The translations under genes and the position numbers were made by a program. A DNA stretch of 64,000 nt from Escherichia phage slur14: sequence record NC_028448.1. One strand, 5' to 3'. Below are positions 3,807 to 14,630 of the stretch, in pieces. Every line of letters starts with the position of its first letter. The stretch's first letter is position 1. The notes under the pieces are model-generated. The model worked only from the letters and a program-made list of their open reading frames with translations. It was not told the DNA's origin and ran no database searches.

Positions 3807-4168
3807 TACAAACTCTCAGTAAAGGTACGAGCGATAACGTCGCGCTGCTGTTCCGGAGTCAGAGAGTTAAAGCGAACTGCATAACCGGATACACGGATGG
3901 TCAGCTGCGGATATTTTTCCGGATGCTTAACTGCATCTTCCAGAGTTTCACGACGCAGAACGTTAACGTTCAGGTGTTGACCACCTTCAATTTTAACTGT
4001 AGGCTGTTGCTCAATTTCAATTTCACGGGCATGCAAACCGTAGAAAATTTCTGGGTCTACAAAAGAGTCCTCTTTAAAGGTTTTAGAGACAATAATTCGT
4101 GCTTGAATACCATCTTCAAAATAAATAGTACCTTTATGTGTGCCTTCAAGAATTTGATATGCTTTCAT
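3806..4168 (-). CDS. autonomous glycyl-radical cofactor, GrcA/YfiD-like (T4 vs.6 position)
   Basis: 120 aa; C-terminal half ...[60 protein letters not shown] matches the glycyl-radical domain of E. coli GrcA / PFL C-terminus as recalled. Confidence 0.85.
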
Positions 4169-4175
4169 ATAAACC

Positions 4176-4556
4176 TCAATTAGAAAATAAATTTATCCAA
4201 GATTGTTCTTTGATTAAAAATGGCTCAGAATCATATGCCATTAAACTCTGTGTGATTAGTCCTTTAAAAGGCCCATCAATAAATTCCATGGTAAAATATG
4301 GAATTTTATTCATTAGCCGTGCATTAGGAGCAGTACACAAAACTCTGCATCCTTTGAATACGCCTTTTTGTAATTTGTATTGCTTAGGATAAAATTCGCT
4401 CAAGACGTTGTTATTTGCCAAAATTTCAAAATGATTCACCAATTTATTTTTAATAGTTTTTGGCGAAAAATAAAGATATTCGAAAAGCTGAGTGTCTGTC
4501 ATCATTGCATTCCGATTACGAAAAACTGTGGACGAGTAATACCACCAATGCAACAT
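4176..4556 (-). CDS. hypothetical protein (T4 vs.7 position)
   Basis: 126-aa ORF with ATG start; collinear position. Confidence 0.45.
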
Positions 4557-5089
4557 TTAATATTACAGCAGCAGTGTACAGTGTCAATATGGACACTATA
4601 AATCTTATCCATATCAGGAGATTTGACAGGCTCATCAATTATATACAAAATTCGCGAAAGCGATAAACCTCTGAACTTGCTTCCTTTATTACCAATAAAA
4701 CTGCGCACAGAATCAGTAAATAAACGAAAACGTATATCATCATTAGAATAACGCGAAAATTCCTTTTTAATGTTATTTGCAGAAATTTTAGCGTAAGCTG
4801 AAGTATTAGAAAGAACAATAACTGTTCCGCCATCATACAACCAATTAGCAGCAAAGTTAGTCACAGCAATTGATTTACCAGATTGACGTCCACCATCTAG
4901 TCGAAGTGTGCAGTACTGTTTAAGTAATTCTTCAAATGGCGGGATATAATCGTTTTTACAAATTTCTTCTACTCTAGCATCAGAATGGTGTGTAAAAGCA
5001 TTCATCAGGGATAGATAAGGACCAGTTAAAAATGTTCTCATTTTATTCTCTCTAAATTTGGGCCATTCCATGGCGCATGAATTGTCCAT
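4502..5089 (-). CDS. hypothetical P-loop protein (T4 vs.8 position)
   Basis: 195-aa ORF; Walker-A-like GGRQSGKS; start codon uncertain (ATGs at 5089, 5071, 5041). Confidence 0.5.
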   Translation of the reverse strand: MDNSCAMEWPKFRENKMRTFLTGPYLSLMNAFTHHSDARVEEICKNDYIPPFEELLKQYCTLRLDGGRQSGKSIAVTNFAANWLYDGGTVIVLSNTSAYAKISANNIKKEFSRYSNDDIRFRLFTDSVRSFIGNKGSKFRGLSLSRILYIIDEPVKSPDMDKIYSVHIDTVHCCCNIKCCIGGITRPQFFVIGMQ

Positions 5090-5194
5090 TTCTGTATTTA
5101 CCCATTACCGCACTTGGGCTCGACCTTATTACAGGTTGGCGGGAATCCCTCATAGAATCATGAGGTCCAGCTTGTTCCCATATTTCTTATTTGC

Positions 5195-5668
5195 TTATTT
5201 GAATGATTTGACGTACTGAATAGAACCTTTACTATTCACGAAAGCGATTTTACCATTTTTATTATACATGGTAGCAGTACGCTGATAGCCATAAGTTTGT
5301 TTACCAGATTGATAACCAACTAATGCGAAATTATCTTCACCCATTTTATTCTGTTTAGCGCGAATACGTTCATGACCGTGTGCCATAAGAACCTTAGCAT
5401 CACCAGTTGAAATTGATCTACGAGTTTTTTCATCTTCAACTGTATTAACAAAGTCGTCAAATGAATCAAATTTAGCATGGGATTTATTATACAGTTTTCC
5501 ATCTACTGCATAATTATATCCCTGTACATCCATCTCAACTTCTGTACCATCATCCAATACAGCAGTAATTTTTTGACCTTTTTTAAATTTCAAAAGATCA
5601 GTAAAAGATTCAGCAATAATTTGAGAATTAATAGCTGCTTCAGTGATAAATTCTTGATATGTTTTCAT
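5195..5668 (-). CDS. internal-protein-like protein with capsid targeting sequence
   Basis: 157 aa; N-terminus MKTYQEFITEA... with ITE|A and IAE|S motifs typical of gp21-processed T4 internal proteins. Confidence 0.6.
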   Translation of the reverse strand: MKTYQEFITEAAINSQIIAESFTDLLKFKKGQKITAVLDDGTEVEMDVQGYNYAVDGKLYNKSHAKFDSFDDFVNTVEDEKTRRSISTGDAKVLMAHGHERIRAKQNKMGEDNFALVGYQSGKQTYGYQRTATMYNKNGKIAFVNSKGSIQYVKSFK

Positions 5669-5677
5669 ATGTTTCCT

Positions 5678-6094
5678 TTAAATGTAAATATTTTTGCCGT
5701 AATACTTGTACCAGTGTGGCTTCATTAAAATTTTTTCATCGAGTCGTTGTTGACTCAATTTAATAGCTGATTTGCATGGATTATAATCATTTTTCCATTC
5801 TGCTGGAATATCGCTGATGTCAGGAACTTCAGTATCTTTTATACTAAACCCACGTTTTAAGCATTCCGTTATAATGTCTGATTGACGCTTTCGCAAAAAT
5901 TCTAACTTATCGTAAAAGAACTTAACATGACCAGAGCCTAAAATAAACTCGGAAGATATTTTAAAATCTTTAACCCGCTTACCATTTGCCACATGTTTAC
6001 GAACTATACCAAAAACACGCGGCAATTCACGATACTCAGCCATAAGATGTTGGTCGGTCAGTTCAGAAACAAGTGTTAAATTGATACGAGTCAT
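5678..6094 (-). CDS. denV: endonuclease V (pyrimidine-dimer DNA glycosylase)
   Basis: 138 aa from ATG 6094 (GGAGGAAA RBS); [29 protein letters not shown]... matches T4 DenV as recalled. Confidence 0.9.
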
Positions 6095-6152: not shown

Positions 6153-7393
<1,241 letters not shown>

Positions 7394-7412
<19 letters not shown>

Positions 7413-7882
7413 TCAGTGATAAAGTTATTTAAATTTTGAGTGTATTTCTTTTCATCAAAAATCTTTTGTTGTCTGCGTAGCCGCCATGGCATTTCAATGA
7501 ACGTGTACCATATCCCAGATAATATTGCTGCTGTAAAAATATTAACAAGTATAATTAAAAGAATCCAATCTTCCGTTCTGCCTACTGGACTTTCTCCAAA
7601 GAAGCAAAATACAAATGATGTCACAGGAAAACTAATAATGTACCACAGAATCATAATTTTATCTGTGAACCAATTAGCGTTCGTTAACTTAGCGCGACCA
7701 TTATGAATACATACGAACTTATCATCTGTTATAGTAGATGGCTTAACTGGTTGATATCCCATTCTAAACTCCCTAATCAACAAATTTTTCATATCTTCGG
7801 AACAACCATTCCAGTCAACTCTATCAACTGAAATGCCATCATCCCCATCATCTAAATCATACCAGCGAGTTTTTAAAATCAT
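7394..7882 (-). CDS. predicted membrane protein, member of a tandem paralogous set
   Basis: 162 aa; two hydrophobic helices; C-terminus ...FITECRKLK shared with the neighbouring ORFs. Confidence 0.55.
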
Positions 7883-8253
7883 TTAATTTTCCTACAATCA
7901 CTCACAAACTCTTCCATTGATTCATTTTCAATATAAGACATGTAGTTATTATATTCTTTTAATTGTATTTTGTAATCCTTTTTTCTTTGCCAATTTATTT
8001 TAAAATTATCATAATGAAAATATAACATGGTACCAAAGAATGAAAATAATGAAATCGCTATAGTATAATGAAGTTCACTCCAAACTTCTATTATATCTAT
8101 TATACCGCTGACGTTACTACGGATGTTTAAAATAAAACAGTCAATTAACAATCCAATAAGACTACCTGCAAGAGCTGCAAATGCTGATACGGCAAGAATT
8201 AATAGTGCCTCTGGAAACGAATATTTAACTTTATTTAGTTTTGGCTTTTGCAT
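7879..8253 (-). CDS. predicted membrane protein, paralog
   Basis: 124 aa; hydrophobic segments; C-terminus EEFVSDCRKIK; ATGA overlap with downstream gene. Confidence 0.55.
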   Translation of the reverse strand: MQKPKLNKVKYSFPEALLILAVSAFAALAGSLIGLLIDCFILNIRSNVSGIIDIIEVWSELHYTIAISLFSFFGTMLYFHYDNFKINWQRKKDYKIQLKEYNNYMSYIENESMEEFVSDCRKIK

Positions 8254-8627
8254 CGTGATTCCTTAACAAATTTCATAATTTCATCAAATTCATACGCAGC
8301 AAGTTTAAGCTGGTGTTCCTTTTTAATCTTTTTACACTGAGCTTTCCATTCACGTACACGTTTACGATAATGTCTTCCTTGATACCAGTATCCTACCCAA
8401 TTTACAGGTACTAATAAAAATGGAACTATCATTGGAAGAATTAATGTTGACGCAAATATTATATTAGATTCAATATCAGTCATAACATCTATAACTATTC
8501 CAACCCCCAGTAGAATTACAAATGATACAGCTATTACAGGACCTATTAATACATCAGTAGAAATTAGCTGGCGCTTTAATTCATACTTCAACGGTTTACT
8601 TGGAAGATACATTGATGGCTTTGACAT
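8235..8627 (-). CDS. predicted membrane protein, paralog
   Basis: ORF-track start is TTG; ATG at 8627 preceded by TAAGGAAT; two TM segments; C-terminus MKFVKESRCK. Confidence 0.5.
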   Translation of the reverse strand: MSKPSMYLPSKPLKYELKRQLISTDVLIGPVIAVSFVILLGVGIVIDVMTDIESNIIFASTLILPMIVPFLLVPVNWVGYWYQGRHYRKRVREWKAQCKKIKKEHQLKLAAYEFDEIMKFVKESRCKSQN

Positions 8628-9204
8628 ATTCTCTACATTCCTTAACAAATTTTTCTAATAATAAATCGCTTTCAAAATTGAGATTTTCTACGAATTTATC
8701 AAAAAGATCATCAACAATATTCAAGATATTCTTTTTACTAAGAATACGTTTATTTTCATGCTTCGTTTCAGAATCAACTATAAGAGTAAAGAAATATTTC
8801 TTGCCCTGAAATTTTACAGTAGTATCAATATAAAATAAATTTGACTTTTGTAAATTACGTTTAAACCGTGCATCACTTAAACTATAAACGCCAAGATAAT
8901 CATAATCGTCGTTTAAATAACAGACCGTCCATTCAGGAGAAACAAAATCAGTAAATTCAACGTCAAAATCGCATGTTAATAAATGAATTGATTCAATACT
9001 GTTAATAAGTATTCCAGGACGTATTAAAGACTTTTTACCTCTAGAAAATCCTCTAGAAAGACTTTCATCAGTTTCATATGAAGAACCCCAATAATAATTA
9101 CGTCCTTCTGCCATACGTTTAAGAGCATTTAATAATTGATCTGGAACATCAACCTGTCTTTGGAACTCTTCAAACATTGAATTGAAATCACTTTGCATTT
9201 TCAT
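8596..9204 (-). CDS. hypothetical protein sharing the C-terminal FVKECR motif
   Basis: 202 aa soluble ORF; C-terminus ...EKFVKECREYVKAINVSSK. Confidence 0.5.
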   Translation of the reverse strand: MKMQSDFNSMFEEFQRQVDVPDQLLNALKRMAEGRNYYWGSSYETDESLSRGFSRGKKSLIRPGILINSIESIHLLTCDFDVEFTDFVSPEWTVCYLNDDYDYLGVYSLSDARFKRNLQKSNLFYIDTTVKFQGKKYFFTLIVDSETKHENKRILSKKNILNIVDDLFDKFVENLNFESDLLLEKFVKECREYVKAINVSSK

Positions 9205-9224
9205 TCCTACTTACTCCAAGTAAT

Positions 9225-9240
9225 AGGGGCCGAAGCCCCT
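9225..9240 (-). terminator. stable UUCG-tetraloop hairpin (minus strand GGGGC-UUCG-GCCCC) downstream of the 9246..9839 gene
   Basis: Perfect 5-6 bp GC stem with UUCG loop on the transcribed strand; weak T tract, so possibly an RNA-stability element rather than a terminator. Confidence 0.4.
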
Positions 9241-9245
9241 TATCA

Positions 9246-9839
9246 TTATTTCAGAGAATTAATATATTCCTGAACATCGGCAGAGGTAGTTTCAACCCCA
9301 GAAATATTACCATTAAAGGTTTCAACTCGGGCGAGAGTATCTTCAATATCAACTTTAGTTAGCGCTGCAATTTCAACTACATCATCAGCAGTACTAATTC
9401 CAAGGGCATTTGCTGCACGAGTTTCACGGATATATTCCAATTTAACTGCAAGTTCTTGGCGAGCATCATCCAATTCAACTACTTTCTTGGCGATTTCAAT
9501 TCGCATTTCAGCATAACCATCAGCTTTAGTAGTCAACTGTTCAGCTGTTCGACGATATAGCAAGCCGAGTTTAGCATGCATTGTTACATCTTGACCTTCA
9601 GAAAGAAGCTTGCGAATTTCACGCTCTTTTGATTCGGCCTGTCGATTCTTTTCGACAATAAGTTCACGAATACGTTTTTCTTCATTAATAGATTTAACAG
9701 AAGCAGTTTTTAGATCTTTAATCTTATCAAGTAGTTTTGCTGCCGCAGCAGTATACTGTTCTTCAACAGATAAATTTTTAGCCATAGCAGAACCAAGTTT
9801 AGTGCGAATAAACTCAACAATTTTCTTCAGCATGTTCAT
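9246..9839 (-). CDS. coiled-coil protein, possibly PspA/IM30-like
   Basis: 197 aa, almost entirely heptad-like charged helices; architecture reminiscent of PspA (tentative); canonical early promoter upstream. Confidence 0.5.
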
Positions 9840-11672: not shown

Positions 11673-12023
11673 TTAATATTCTTTTAAAGCATCAATCTGT
11701 TTACGGCGTTCACGCCATAAATCAATTGCTTCATACGCGGATTCAACATTTCGAATTGGACGGCATTTATATAAAGATTTGTGATTTTGATATTGCGTAG
11801 ATAACGGAATTTTATCTAAAAGGTCTTTACGTTCAAAGTATTCGTAACCATCTAAGCCAAATGAACGATTTTTGAGAAATTGCCAATGACCAAATTCGTT
11901 TTGAATATAAATATAATCCGCATGTTGATAAAGTAAATTAATTTCACGAAATGAGATATGTTTTTCATATTCATTGAAGTAAAATGTTAAATCATGAACT
12001 ACTAAATAAACATTACCTTTCAT
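11673..12023 (-). CDS. hypothetical protein
   Basis: 116-aa ORF with ATG start, 19 nt downstream of tRNA-Arg. Confidence 0.5.
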   Translation of the reverse strand: MKGNVYLVVHDLTFYFNEYEKHISFREINLLYQHADYIYIQNEFGHWQFLKNRSFGLDGYEYFERKDLLDKIPLSTQYQNHKSLYKCRPIRNVESAYEAIDLWRERRKQIDALKEY

Positions 12024-12197: not shown

Positions 12198-12311
12198 ATT
12201 AATACCTACTCCAACAATCAAGATGTCTTCACACGAAATTAAGAGAAGAGTGATCAGTTCAACCCCTATAATCGCGTCAAGTAGATATTAATGTGACAGT
12301 TGTCACAAATT

Positions 12312-12899: not shown

Positions 12900-12986
12900 T
12901 GGTGCGAGAAGTGGGACTCGAACCCACAAGGAAATCATTCCGCAGCATTTTAAGTGCTGTGCCTTTACCAATTTGACCATTCTCGC
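12900..12986 (-). tRNA. tRNA-Leu (anticodon UAA), long variable arm
   Basis: 87 nt; anticodon stem-loop CAGCA-CUUAAAA-TGCTG; long variable arm; T-arm GTGGG-TTCGAGT-CCCAC; CCA encoded. Confidence 0.8.
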
Positions 12987-12992
12987 TCTATA

Positions 12993-13601
12993 TTATTTAT
13001 TACGTGAAAAAGATTGTTCTATCAATTCTGGACACTTTCGTTCTATCCATTTTCTAGCTTTTTGTGGGCTTATACCTATTATTTTAGCAGCTTTACTAAC
13101 CCATCCAAATTTAGAATAATCGATTTTAACTAATTCTTCGTAAATTTCATCAGTTAAAATCTTTTCATTAATATTTACCAGTAAATGATATAATTTATTA
13201 TCATTAGCAATTTTAATGAATCTTTTATAGTTTCCGCCTTTACTTAAACCTAATGAAGTAATTGCAGATGATATAGTAGCCGAATTTAATAATGCGTTTA
13301 AAATTTCTTCATCACTAACATTATAACGCTTTTTATTATTTTTAATATTTTTACCAGCAAAAGTATCAGTTTGCGAATGGCAATTTGGACATAATAATCT
13401 TAAATTTGATTTAAGATGATTTTTATTATTTCCATCAATATGGTCTAATTGCAGAACAATATGCTTATTTTGCCATTTTGAAATTTTACAAATTGCACAC
13501 TCATATGGAAAAATATTTTCTTTTATTATTTTGTCTTTCAGCTTTCCTGTACTAAAATTTGGATGTTTTCCTTCAAAAATTTCAGCTAATTTAGTATCCA
13601 T
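12993..13601 (-). CDS. free-standing HNH homing endonuclease with C-terminal helix-turn-helix
   Basis: ATG at 13601 (ORF-track TTG at 13625); HNH zinc core CAICK...LDHIDGNNKNH...LLCPNCH; C-terminal HTH-like KAAKIIGISPQKARKWIERK; stop 7 nt from tRNA-Leu 5' end. Confidence 0.8.
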   Translation of the reverse strand: MDTKLAEIFEGKHPNFSTGKLKDKIIKENIFPYECAICKISKWQNKHIVLQLDHIDGNNKNHLKSNLRLLCPNCHSQTDTFAGKNIKNNKKRYNVSDEEILNALLNSATISSAITSLGLSKGGNYKRFIKIANDNKLYHLLVNINEKILTDEIYEELVKIDYSKFGWVSKAAKIIGISPQKARKWIERKCPELIEQSFSRNK

Positions 13602-13711
13602 AATATAATTCCCAATTATTAACAAAGGCTCTCAAACAAGAACCCTTGATGATAGAGGGTATTAATCAGTGCGGTATGAGTTAATAATAACAAATAATTC
13701 TTAAAGCATAT

Positions 13712-13999
13712 TTACCATTTATGATAATACATATTTACGATGCATTCAAGACCCAAAGGATTCTTGAAAATATCATATTCAAGAGGACCTTTTTCTGTTT
13801 CAATAAAGAAATCAAAATTTACTGTATTAAATTTACGGTCTTCCTTCACTAATTTAACTTGAGAAGATGAACGGTCAACATAAACCTTTTCAACTTCAAA
13901 ACATGTTAAAATGCCATAATCATCAATCAAGGCTTTAACTGCTTCTTGATCATATTTATATCCATTTTCAATGGATGATACTTTAGCATAAAGAATCAT
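13712..13999 (-). CDS. hypothetical protein
   Basis: 95 aa from ATG 13999 (ORF-track TTG at 14005). Confidence 0.45.
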   Translation of the reverse strand: MILYAKVSSIENGYKYDQEAVKALIDDYGILTCFEVEKVYVDRSSSQVKLVKEDRKFNTVNFDFFIETEKGPLEYDIFKNPLGLECIVNMYYHKW

Positions 14000-14001
14000 T
14001 A

Positions 14002-14385
14002 TCAACCTTCATCAACAATAGTATGAGTATGGGCATTTACAATTTGCCACCAATCAAAGCGATTAGAACCATACATCGGTTTGTTTTCATTTTCTTTGAT
14101 AATATCACGAAGTTCATCTTCAGTAGCGGCTTTCGCGATTAAATCAGCATATCCACCACGAGGATAATAATTATCACCTGCAAAAAGTAAAAAGTTTGGT
14201 TTAATGTTATTGAACTCTTCAAGAGTAATAACTGTTCCTGATGGTAGTTGAACAATCTCTACATATTTATATCCTAATTTTTGAGCAGCATCTACTGCTT
14301 CAAGCAAAGTATCATGAGCCCATCCAATTTGACAACCTGGCTTTTCAGATGGATTAGCCTGATAATCCGCGTACACTTTATACAT
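14002..14385 (-). CDS. hypothetical protein
   Basis: 127 aa from ATG 14385 with AAAGGTGA RBS (ORF-track TTG start at 14424). Confidence 0.5.
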   Translation of the reverse strand: MYKVYADYQANPSEKPGCQIGWAHDTLLEAVDAAQKLGYKYVEIVQLPSGTVITLEEFNNIKPNFLLFAGDNYYPRGGYADLIAKAATEDELRDIIKENENKPMYGSNRFDWWQIVNAHTHTIVDEG

Positions 14386-14600: not shown

Positions 14601-14630
14601 ATAGTATCACAACTAAAACCCTATGTAAAC
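14601..14630 (-). promoter_or_regulatory. T4-type early promoter
   Basis: Minus strand GTTTAC-18nt-TGaTACTAT between the ipI stop and the 14572 start. Confidence 0.65.

What the first reader, a model, noticed from the sequence alone, without database searches (positions are those of the whole stretch)
12967..13640. HNH homing endonuclease wedged against the 5' end of the tRNA cluster, where T4 has tRNA-Gln and segB
The ORF 12993..13601 has a complete HNH zinc core (CAICK...DHIDGNNKNH...LLCPNCH) and a C-terminal helix-turn-helix, and its stop lies 7 nt from the 5' end of tRNA-Leu. In T4 as I recall it, tRNA-Leu is preceded by tRNA-Gln and the nearby homing endonuclease is the GIY-YIG SegB. Here no tRNA-Gln is detectable and the endonuclease is of a different family, suggesting an independent invasion of the same hotspot that may have displaced tRNA-Gln. 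Because tRNA transcripts must originate upstream, the endonuclease is probably co-transcribed with the tRNA precursor.
Basis: partly seen in the sequence, partly recalled or inferred. Interest (0 to 1): 0.65.

Follow-up and report, generated by a model that had tools for sequence, protein, structure and literature searches.

The report
HNH endonuclease gene overwriting phage tRNA-Gln
A T4-like coliphage carries a selfish-looking HNH nuclease gene that has overwritten the tRNA-Gln gene at the head of its tRNA operon; databases already annotate the gene as an HNH endonuclease, but it has no name and nobody appears to have studied it.

Summary
The window is Escherichia phage slur03 (Tequatrovirus). 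On the minus strand, 12993..13601 encodes a 202-aa HNH nuclease followed by two helix-turn-helix-like modules. Its stop codon lies 6 nt before tRNA-Leu. The whole genome has 10 tRNAs and no tRNA-Gln.

Alignment with T4 and five other HNH-less relatives shows a 616-bp cassette replacing nt 10-71 of tRNA-Gln. Nine nt of the tRNA's 5' end (13606..13614) and up to 3 nt of its 3' end remain. The same two junctions occur in 62 GenBank/RefSeq records; 448 records keep tRNA-Gln.

In ten HNH+ phages the gene is under strong purifying selection (pN/pS 0.03). It is 3-5 times less diverse at synonymous sites than its flanking genes, and those flanks are not differentiated from HNH-less phages. This fits an active element that moved across backgrounds.

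Homologues (41-68% identity) lie in tRNA clusters of other phages, twice directly after tRNA-Gln and several times behind a truncated tRNA. The closest named relative is T5 HegA/F-TflIV.

Homing, target site and co-transcription are inferred, not shown. Verdict: a new, unnamed member of a known kind, of moderate interest.

The parts
12993..13601 (-). HNH endonuclease ORF (202 aa plus stop), starting at ATG 13601..13599
   Evidence: ORF list. RefSeq CDS YP_009625111.1 'HNH endonuclease'. The N-terminus is conserved in orthologues, with M1 nearly invariant. pN/pS is 0.03 among 10 alleles.
13362..13514 (-). HNH (beta-beta-alpha-metal) catalytic core, residues about 30-80: C35/C38/C71/C74 zinc ligands and H54, N66, H75
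13017..13313 (-). C-terminal half with two helix-turn-helix-like modules (residues 97-134 and 151-195); presumed DNA-binding domain
   Evidence: AF2 helices. Weak HTH_29/P22_Cro/HTH_17 hits at 164-192. The last HTH is shared with T5 HegA and with the GIY-YIG ORF of phage CM8 (50% over 24 aa). phrog_16521 hits residues 76-188.
13606..13614 (-). Remnant of tRNA-Gln: its first 9 nt, TGGGAATTA (TGGGAATCA in most other HNH+ phages). It also supplies a GGGA Shine-Dalgarno-like element 9 nt before the ATG (inferred).
   Evidence: Alignments with T4, RB32, RB51, AR1, ZN18 and NiC89.
12990..13605 (-). The inserted cassette (616 bp: TATT + ORF + TAT), which replaces nt 10-71 of tRNA-Gln
   Evidence: Homology with HNH-less genomes stops and resumes at these points. 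Both junctions are present in exactly 62 phage records.
12987..12989 (-). AGA (AGC in most HNH+ alleles): probably the last 2 nt of tRNA-Gln plus the 1-nt spacer
   Evidence: HNH-less genomes read ...CCCAGC|GCGAGAA. Too short to be certain.
12900..12986 (-). tRNA-Leu(UAA), the first intact tRNA of the operon. RNase P cleavage at its 5' end would cut the HNH mRNA 6 nt after the stop codon (inferred).
   Evidence: ARAGORN and Rfam. The processing idea follows the analogy made for segB/tRNA-Arg in PMC2330249.
13615..13711 (-). Conserved operon leader shared with T4: MotA-box-like ATATGCTTTA (13711..13702), -10-like TATTAT (13689..13684), 11-bp hairpin (13648..13623)
   Evidence: 97-nt leader almost identical to T4 (one mismatch in the aligned stretch). 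Hairpin in the MFE fold, with two changes in NiC89 that keep the pairing. Promoter function is inferred from the consensus only.
14601..14629 (-). Sigma-70-like early-promoter match (TTTACA-17-TACTAT, with TG) upstream of trna.4, about 1 kb upstream of the HNH gene
   Evidence: No terminator-like site lies between it and the tRNAs. Late-promoter motifs TATAAATA are at 13953..13960 and 14264..14271 (-).

Best explanation
This is a free-standing HNH homing-endonuclease gene that has overwritten the tRNA-Gln(UUG) gene at the head of the T-even tRNA operon.

Shown here:
- The 616-bp cassette replaces nt 10-71 of tRNA-Gln.
- All 62 public carriers share the same two junctions, which indicates one insertion event.
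- The protein has an intact HNH/zinc core plus helical HTH-like modules and is under strong purifying selection.
- The gene is younger than, and uncoupled from, its flanking genes.

Inferred:
- The gene is transcribed with the tRNA operon from the conserved upstream early, middle and late promoters.
- It is translated using the GGGA of the tRNA-Gln remnant.
- Its mRNA is cut 6 nt after the stop codon when RNase P matures tRNA-Leu, which would keep expression low.
- In a mixed infection the enzyme nicks or cuts HNH-less relatives in or next to their tRNA-Gln gene. Repair from the HNH+ genome, using the conserved leader and tRNA-Leu as homology arms, then swaps tRNA-Gln for the cassette.
- The carrier is immune because its own copy of the site is deleted.
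For: Precise replacement and tRNA remnants.

No tRNA-Gln anywhere in the genome.

Sporadic distribution at one locus: 62 records span each junction and 62 have at least 95% aa identity, against 448 records with intact leader, tRNA-Gln and tRNA-Leu.

Carriers have at least four different tRNA-cluster architectures and two upstream contexts.

Diversity: HNH pS is 0.035 against 0.10-0.20 for flanking genes in the same 10 genomes. Flank pS within HNH+, within HNH- and between the groups is alike. pN/pS is 0.03 (12 synonymous-only variable codons and 2 amino-acid-changing ones; 2 further codons carry ambiguous bases).

Catalytic and zinc residues are invariant; the fold agrees.

The family lives in tRNA clusters:
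- The 68% orthologue starts 14 nt after tRNA-Gln in a Marfavirus-like contig and replaces the next tRNA.
- A 41% homologue starts 39 nt after tRNA-Gln and ends 6 nt before tRNA-Asp.
- 43-45% homologues follow truncated tRNA 5' halves and abut tRNA-Lys.
- T5 HegA/F-TflIV (35% over 170 aa) sits 23 nt after tRNA-Ile2.

The tRNA-Gln next to the Marfavirus-like copy differs from that of the HNH-less relative PWKp18 in its anticodon and T stems, as expected if the target lies there.

Precedent: SegB cleaves inside tRNA genes and homes in this same cluster (PMC2330249).
Against: No enzymatic or genetic data exist for this protein, so cleavage, target site, nick versus double-strand break and homing are all inferred.

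Polymorphisms only about 30 nt upstream of the junction (the hairpin loop) are already shuffled relative to HNH presence. No co-conversion tract is therefore visible, and ordinary recombination could explain the spread.

Synonymous diversity of 3.5% means the gene is not a very recent invader.

The ten loci were chosen to be architecturally diverse, which inflates flank diversity.

The Pfam HNH score is sub-threshold for this sequence.

The predicted pairing that would sequester the ribosome-binding site is not better than shuffled controls (z -1.17).

Some homologues are not next to tRNA-Gln, so the target assignment is only suggestive.
Confidence: 0.7

Rival explanations
1. The nuclease is domesticated or multi-purpose. 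It is kept because it benefits the phage rather than because it homes. Possible benefits are excluding co-infecting relatives, degrading competitor or host DNA, or promoting rearrangement or amplification of the tRNA and anti-defence region, as reported for SegB.
For: Strong purifying selection (pN/pS 0.03) and persistence long enough to accumulate 3.5% synonymous divergence. Orthologues sit at the syntenic head of the tRNA cluster in other T4-like genera. SegB in the same cluster promotes amplification of anti-defence loci (PMC13096335). CM8 carries a tandem duplication nearby.
Against: Only about 12% of Tequatrovirus records carry it. It costs a tRNA gene. Its patchy distribution across unrelated backgrounds is what is expected of a selfish element. 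No data link it to any defence or amplification phenotype.
Confidence: 0.17
2. The gene is a passive passenger. The endonuclease no longer homes, or never did in this lineage. The cassette spread among T-even phages only through their very frequent homologous recombination and drift, or by hitch-hiking.
For: No detectable co-conversion tract next to the junctions. Flanks are fully shuffled. Several T4 mob and seg genes have never been shown to be active (Table 1 of PMC2988022).
Against: An ORF without function should decay. Instead all ten alleles examined are intact with pN/pS 0.03, 57 of the 62 records are at least 99% identical in protein, and the catalytic residues are invariant out to 40% identity. 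The lower coalescence age than the flanks needs a spreading advantage or a sweep.
Confidence: 0.1
3. The HNH arrangement is ancestral, and tRNA-Gln was inserted later in the other T-even phages.
For: None beyond the presence of HNH orthologues at the syntenic position in other genera.
Against: The HNH+ allele contains the first 9 nt and the last 2-3 nt of tRNA-Gln flanking the cassette, which only makes sense if the tRNA was there first. tRNA-Gln alleles are more numerous and more diverse. tRNA-Gln also heads the cluster in Marfavirus.
Confidence: 0.02

Closest known systems
T5 HegA = F-TflIV (HNH endonuclease of the T5 tRNA gene region; Akulenko et al. 2004, PMID 15456135, which I could not read here)
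   Same: It is the closest named relative: 35% identity over 170 aa, E 2e-22, covering the HNH/zinc core and the C-terminal HTH. It lies in a phage tRNA cluster, co-oriented, 23 nt after tRNA-Ile2. Some records of this very gene are annotated 'H-N-H endonuclease F-TflIV'.
   Different: HegA is 227 aa with an extra N-terminal LuxR/GerE-type HTH, and it lacks the middle helical module. It belongs to a different phage family and a different tRNA slot. Its cleavage site is unknown to me, so nothing can be transferred about the target.
T4 SegB (GIY-YIG free-standing homing endonuclease in the same tRNA cluster)
   Same: It occupies the same operon and the same kind of niche, replacing tRNAs (Tyr-Asn(-His)) between tRNA-Ile and tRNA-Arg. 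It is experimentally shown to cleave inside tRNA genes and to home in T4 x T2L crosses, and its expression is thought to be restrained by tRNA maturation (PMC2330249).
   Different: It has an unrelated catalytic domain (GIY-YIG) and shows no BLASTP similarity to this protein. It occupies a different slot. JEP6 carries both.
T4 MobA-E, I-TevIII and Hef (HNH endonucleases of T-even phages)
   Same: They belong to the same superfamily group (PF01844-type HNH with zinc; classification in PMC5714182). They are free-standing, sporadically distributed and inserted between or within conserved genes (PMC2988022).
   Different: This gene is not a detectable paralogue. Only 78 Escherichia-phage records matched the protein by tblastn at 1e-5, although more than 600 matched the tRNA region. 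This is an inference, since I did not compare it directly with each Mob protein. It has a different DNA-binding half (HTH modules rather than a Mob-type zinc finger) and a different locus.
GIY-YIG 'SegB-like' ORF in the tRNA-Pro slot (RB51ORF142, AR1 'segD', CM8, NiC89) and the 160-aa phrog_16521 ORF in the tRNA-Thr slot (Lutter)
   Same: They have the same layout: a short 5' remnant of the overwritten tRNA, then the ORF, which ends a few nt before the next intact tRNA. The GIY-YIG ORF shares the C-terminal HTH motif with the HNH protein (50% over 24 aa; phrog_16521 hits all three).
   Different: The catalytic domains differ (GIY-YIG in one, none recognised in the other), and so do the tRNA slots.

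Membership tests
HNH / His-Me finger nucleases (Pfam PF01844 type) | Catalytic His in a D-H motif, Asn, and second His/Asn on a beta-beta-alpha-metal fold | tested here: met
HNH / His-Me finger nucleases (Pfam PF01844 type) | CxxC...CxxC zinc site bracketing the motif | tested here: met
   C35, C38, C71 and C74 are invariant.
HNH / His-Me finger nucleases (Pfam PF01844 type) | Score at or above Pfam's gathering threshold | tested here: inconclusive
   17.3 bits against a cut-off of 21.4 for this protein. Orthologues score 21.3 (P0002) and 26.5 (P0003, passes). PHROG HNH families hit at 5e-124 and 2.5e-29.
Free-standing homing endonuclease gene | Presence/absence polymorphism at one locus among close relatives, with otherwise homologous flanks | tested here: met
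   62 records carry the cassette at identical junctions. 448 records have tRNA-Gln instead.
Free-standing homing endonuclease gene | Modular nuclease domain plus separate DNA-binding domain; not inside an intron or intein | tested here: met
   N-terminal HNH plus two HTH-like modules. No group I intron or other RNA family is detected across the ORF, and there is no 3' tRNA exon.
Free-standing homing endonuclease gene | Evolutionary history uncoupled from the flanks (horizontal spread) | tested here: met
   pS is 0.035 against 0.10-0.20 in flanking genes. Flanks are undifferentiated between HNH+ and HNH-. Carriers have different cluster architectures. Caveat: only ten chosen loci were compared.
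Free-standing homing endonuclease gene | Site-specific cleavage or nicking of the endonuclease-less allele | not testable with these tools
   Needs protein and DNA substrates.
Free-standing homing endonuclease gene | Endonuclease-dependent over-transmission in mixed infection | not testable with these tools
   Needs phage crosses.
T5 HegA/F-TflIV-like HNH endonucleases | Significant full-length sequence homology | tested here: met
   BLASTP 35% over 170 aa, E 2e-22. tblastn hit to T5 hegA.
T5 HegA/F-TflIV-like HNH endonucleases | Same domain architecture | tested here: not met
   HegA has an N-terminal GerE/LuxR HTH (residues 8-42) that is absent here, and it lacks residues about 107-134 of this protein.
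T5 HegA/F-TflIV-like HNH endonucleases | Residence in a phage tRNA gene cluster next to a tRNA | tested here: met
   This also holds for 7 of 8 other full-length homologue contexts examined.
T4 Mob-type HNH endonucleases (MobA-E) | Detectable sequence relationship beyond the HNH motif | tested here: inconclusive
   Most Tequatrovirus records did not match at E 1e-5. I made no direct pairwise comparison with the Mob proteins.

The most novel reading that the evidence does not exclude
The window gene belongs to a lineage of HegA/F-TflIV-like HNH endonucleases that specialises in phage tRNA clusters. These enzymes would recognise a tRNA gene as their homing site and spread by overwriting one tRNA gene at a time, with immunity coming from deletion or mutation of that tRNA.

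In Tequatrovirus the target would be tRNA-Gln(UUG). Together with the GIY-YIG and phrog_16521 cassettes in the Pro, Thr and Tyr-Asn-His slots, some of which share a C-terminal HTH module, this would make selfish endonucleases a main determinant of which tRNAs a T-even phage carries. It would therefore also affect how the phage fares against codon bias and tRNA-cleaving host defences.
Probability: 0.35. Interest if true: 0.6.

Novelty: new member of a known kind. Interest (0 to 1): 0.4.

Why it matters
If the inference holds, this is a clean natural case of a selfish nuclease spreading at the direct cost of a useful phage gene, a tRNA. It lies in the same operon where SegB is already known to home and to drive amplification of anti-defence tRNAs.

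It offers a ready test system. HNH+ and HNH- alleles differ only by the cassette and the tRNA, and many isolates of both kinds exist.

It may also help explain why tRNA repertoires differ among otherwise near-identical T-even phages. That is relevant to phage-therapy cocktails and to defences that cleave tRNAs.

On its own, however, the gene is an uncharacterised member of a well-known class and is already annotated as such.

Tried and rejected
IMG/VR scans with the protein and with an exact 32-mer found nothing. The one metagenome hit had the same junction, so no intermediate 'tRNA-Gln + HNH + tRNA-Leu' allele was found.

BLASTP against T4 SegB and the Lutter 160-aa ORF showed no similarity.

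The predicted helix pairing the GGG of the ribosome-binding site with the upstream CCC is not better than shuffles (z -1.17), so I do not claim hairpin control of translation.

I looked for a hidden or degenerate tRNA-Gln within or upstream of the ORF and across the genome (ARAGORN, Rfam at E up to 1, 11-mer scan). None was found.

I first read the low total diversity of the HNH gene (pi 0.008) as recent origin. Splitting synonymous from non-synonymous sites showed that part of it is purifying selection, and the age difference is 3-5 fold, not larger.

The AATAAATA just before tRNA-Leu resembles the T4 late promoter TATAAATA in 7 of 8 positions. I do not rely on it, because stop-codon-rich AT sequence gives such matches easily.

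Literature searches found no description of this gene. The Akulenko 2004 paper on F-TflIV is not held.

Full report
**What the window is.** The 2.5 kb around the finding is 100% identical to Escherichia phage slur03, a Tequatrovirus (T4-like) phage. All genes in this stretch are on the minus strand. Their transcriptional order is the T4 order: 3, 1, 57A, 57B, ipI, trna.4, trna.3, trna.2, then the ORF in question, then the tRNAs.

**Checking the observation.**
- ORF 12993..13601 (-) encodes 202 aa.
- ARAGORN finds ten tRNAs, in order Leu, Gly, Pro, Ser, Thr, Met/Ile(CAU), Tyr, Asn, His, Arg. There is no tRNA-Gln.
- tRNA-Leu starts at 12986, so 6 nt separate it from the stop codon.
- The rest of the slur03 genome has no tRNA at all.
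- An 11-mer scan with both natural tRNA-Gln alleles finds only chance words and the common T-loop.
- Rfam at E up to 1 finds no tRNA-like match in or upstream of the ORF.

**The protein is an HNH nuclease.**
- Pfam HNH is below threshold for this sequence (17.3 against 21.4 bits). PHROG HNH families match strongly, and the 58%-identical orthologue passes Pfam.
- C35, C38, H54, N66, C71, C74 and H75 are invariant across 56 homologues.
- The C-terminal half is helical, with two HTH-like modules.

**What happened at the locus.** The window was aligned with T4 and with RB32, RB51, AR1, ZN18 and NiC89. It is almost identical to them through the trna.2-tRNA spacer and through the first 9 nt of tRNA-Gln, TGGGAATTA (13614..13606). 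Homology then stops. It resumes exactly at tRNA-Leu +1, or 3 nt earlier in most HNH+ alleles, which read AGC like the end of tRNA-Gln plus its spacer. A 616-bp cassette (TATT, the ORF, TAT) therefore replaces nt 10-71 of tRNA-Gln.

Phage ZN18 has the window's exact tRNA order plus tRNA-Gln, so it shows the pre-insertion state. The remnants rule out the reverse history.

**Distribution.**
- Junction-spanning 91-mers are each found in exactly 62 phage records. These are the same number as have the protein at 95% identity or more.
- 448 records have the intact leader, tRNA-Gln and tRNA-Leu.
- All ten HNH+ loci I fetched, plus one metagenome contig, have the same junctions. This points to one insertion event.
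- The carriers nevertheless have different cluster architectures: with segB (JEP6), with a GIY-YIG ORF in place of tRNA-Pro (CM8, Ec_O157kw), with a 160-aa ORF in place of tRNA-Thr (Lutter), with or without tRNA-His, and with or without an extra 516-nt ORF upstream.

**Population signal.** Among the ten HNH+ genomes:
- Flanking genes have synonymous diversity of 0.10-0.20. This is the same as among HNH-less genomes and as between the two groups. The HNH gene has 0.035.
- Of 14 informative variable codons, 12 are synonymous, giving pN/pS of 0.03.

The protein is therefore functional, and the gene coalesces 3-5 times more recently than its surroundings. It has moved across pre-existing backgrounds.

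Two caveats apply. The ten loci were picked for diversity. Polymorphisms only about 30 nt from the left junction are already shuffled, so no co-conversion tract is visible.

**Relatives elsewhere.** The big protein search returns over 5000 homologues.
- The 68% orthologue lies in a Klebsiella Marfavirus-like contig at the syntenic position. It starts 14 nt after an intact tRNA-Gln and exactly replaces the next tRNA of the HNH-less relative PWKp18. That adjacent tRNA-Gln differs from the PWKp18 one in its anticodon and T stems.
- The 58% orthologues head the tRNA cluster of Erwinia Cronus-like contigs.
- A 41% homologue starts 39 nt after tRNA-Gln and ends 6 nt before tRNA-Asp.
- Two others (43-45%) follow truncated tRNA 5' halves and overlap a tRNA-Lys at their 3' end.
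- T5 HegA/F-TflIV, the closest named relative (35% over 170 aa), lies 23 nt after tRNA-Ile2.

Seven of eight further full-length contexts are within 100 nt of a tRNA. One partial homologue is not.

**A general pattern in this cluster.** In Tequatrovirus the GIY-YIG ORF in the tRNA-Pro slot and the 160-aa ORF in the tRNA-Thr slot have the same layout. Each has a short 5' remnant of the lost tRNA, then the ORF, and ends just before the next intact tRNA. The GIY-YIG protein shares the HNH protein's last HTH (50% over 24 aa). phrog_16521 touches all three proteins.

**Expression (inferred).**
- The leader upstream of the remnant is the T4 leader. It has a MotA-box-like ATATGCTTTA right after the trna.2 stop, a TATTAT 12 bp downstream, and a conserved 11-bp hairpin.
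- An early-type sigma-70 match lies upstream of trna.4.
- Two exact late-promoter motifs lie inside trna.2 and trna.3.
- No terminator-like site lies anywhere between these and the tRNAs.

Co-transcription with the tRNA precursor is thus the simplest reading. RNase P maturation of tRNA-Leu would leave the mRNA with a 6-nt 3' tail. This is analogous to the restraint proposed for segB and for the T5 tRNA-region endonucleases (PMC2330249).

**Mechanism and rivals.** My best explanation, at about 0.7, is an active free-standing homing endonuclease. It would be expressed from operon read-through and would nick or cut HNH-less relatives in or beside tRNA-Gln. Repair using the leader and tRNA-Leu as homology arms would then copy it in. 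The carrier is immune because the site is gone.

The tRNA-Gln target is only suggestive. The supporting points are three associations with the Gln slot, variant tRNA-Gln next to the Marfavirus-like copy, and two Tequatrovirus tRNA-Gln alleles whose whole anticodon stem differs.

The rivals are a domesticated nuclease with another benefit (about 0.17), a passive passenger (about 0.1, disfavoured by pN/pS of 0.03) and an ancestral HNH (refuted by the remnants).

**Novelty.** The arrangement and the 'HNH endonuclease' label are already in 62 public records, including RefSeq. No paper I could search describes the gene or the tRNA-Gln replacement. It is a new, unnamed member of a known kind. The wider 'tRNA-slot replacement' pattern is the more interesting lead.

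Noticed in passing
L006 (CM8) 3976-4584; L013 (Ec_O157kw) 4013-4621; L015 (RB51) 5356-5964; L016 (AR1) 5314-5964; L018 (NiC89) 5356-5964: A 202-aa GIY-YIG + NUMOD3 ORF occupies the tRNA-Pro slot. A degenerate 5' part of tRNA-Pro lies upstream of its start. It ends 4 nt before tRNA-Ser with an exact TATAAATA just ahead of the tRNA. It occurs with or without the HNH cassette.
   Followed up: partly
L011 (Lutter) 3883-4365: A 160-aa ORF (phrog_16521, no Pfam hit) replaces tRNA-Thr, keeping the first 12 nt of the tRNA and ending just before tRNA-Ile. phrog_16521 also weakly hits the C-terminal halves of the HNH protein and of the GIY-YIG ORF.
   Followed up: partly
T4/RB32 versus RB51/AR1/ZN18/NiC89 tRNA-Gln (L002 3459-3531; L014-L018 about 5070-5143): Tequatrovirus tRNA-Gln exists as two alleles. 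Their entire 5-bp anticodon stem differs (TAGCA/TGCTA versus CTGGA/TCCAG), as do loop positions 32 and 38, while the rest of the tRNA is nearly identical. This could be escape from a nuclease acting on the gene or on the tRNA.
   Followed up: no
window 12198-12311 (-): A 114-nt spacer lies between tRNA-Asn and tRNA-His with no tRNA or Rfam match. It contains a short hairpin (GTGACAactGTCAC). The spacer and tRNA-His are absent together in JoYop, Lutter and Ec_O157kw.
   Followed up: partly
window 13623-13648 (-): An 11-bp hairpin in the operon leader is conserved in all 16 Tequatrovirus loci. The loop is variable, and two changes in NiC89 keep the pairing (U.G to C-G, G-C to G.U). Its function is unknown.
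   Followed up: partly
L026 2420-2500 and L028 2417-2500: Upstream of distant HNH homologues lie truncated tRNA 5' halves (acceptor, D arm and part of the anticodon arm). The ORF ends overlap by 10 nt an unusually long (85-87 nt) tRNA-Lys(UUU).
   Followed up: no
L019 4911-5603 versus L022 (PWKp18) 2305-2467: In a Marfavirus-like Klebsiella phage contig the 68% orthologue exactly replaces an 83-nt 'tRNA-Asn' that follows tRNA-Gln in HNH-less relatives. The GenBank relatives lack the gene.
   Followed up: yes
L006 (CM8) 7257-9379: There is a tandem duplication of about 1.0 kb covering ipI, ip5 and part of 57B (the gene annotated elsewhere as anti-CBASS Acb1), close to the HEG-rich tRNA region. 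It recalls the SegB-driven segmental amplification reported in PMC13096335.
   Followed up: no
window 11673-12023 (-): Directly after tRNA-Arg, where T4 has the stable RNAs rnaD and rnaC, the window has a 116-aa ORF (phrog_3355, unknown function). I did not test whether rnaC/rnaD-like RNAs are present elsewhere.
   Followed up: no
slur03 record outside the window (L023, L024): By annotation slur03 looks poor in homing elements. td, nrdB and nrdD are single uninterrupted CDSs, and nrdA is followed directly by nrdB with no mobE. The HNH cassette may be one of few such elements in this genome.
   Followed up: no
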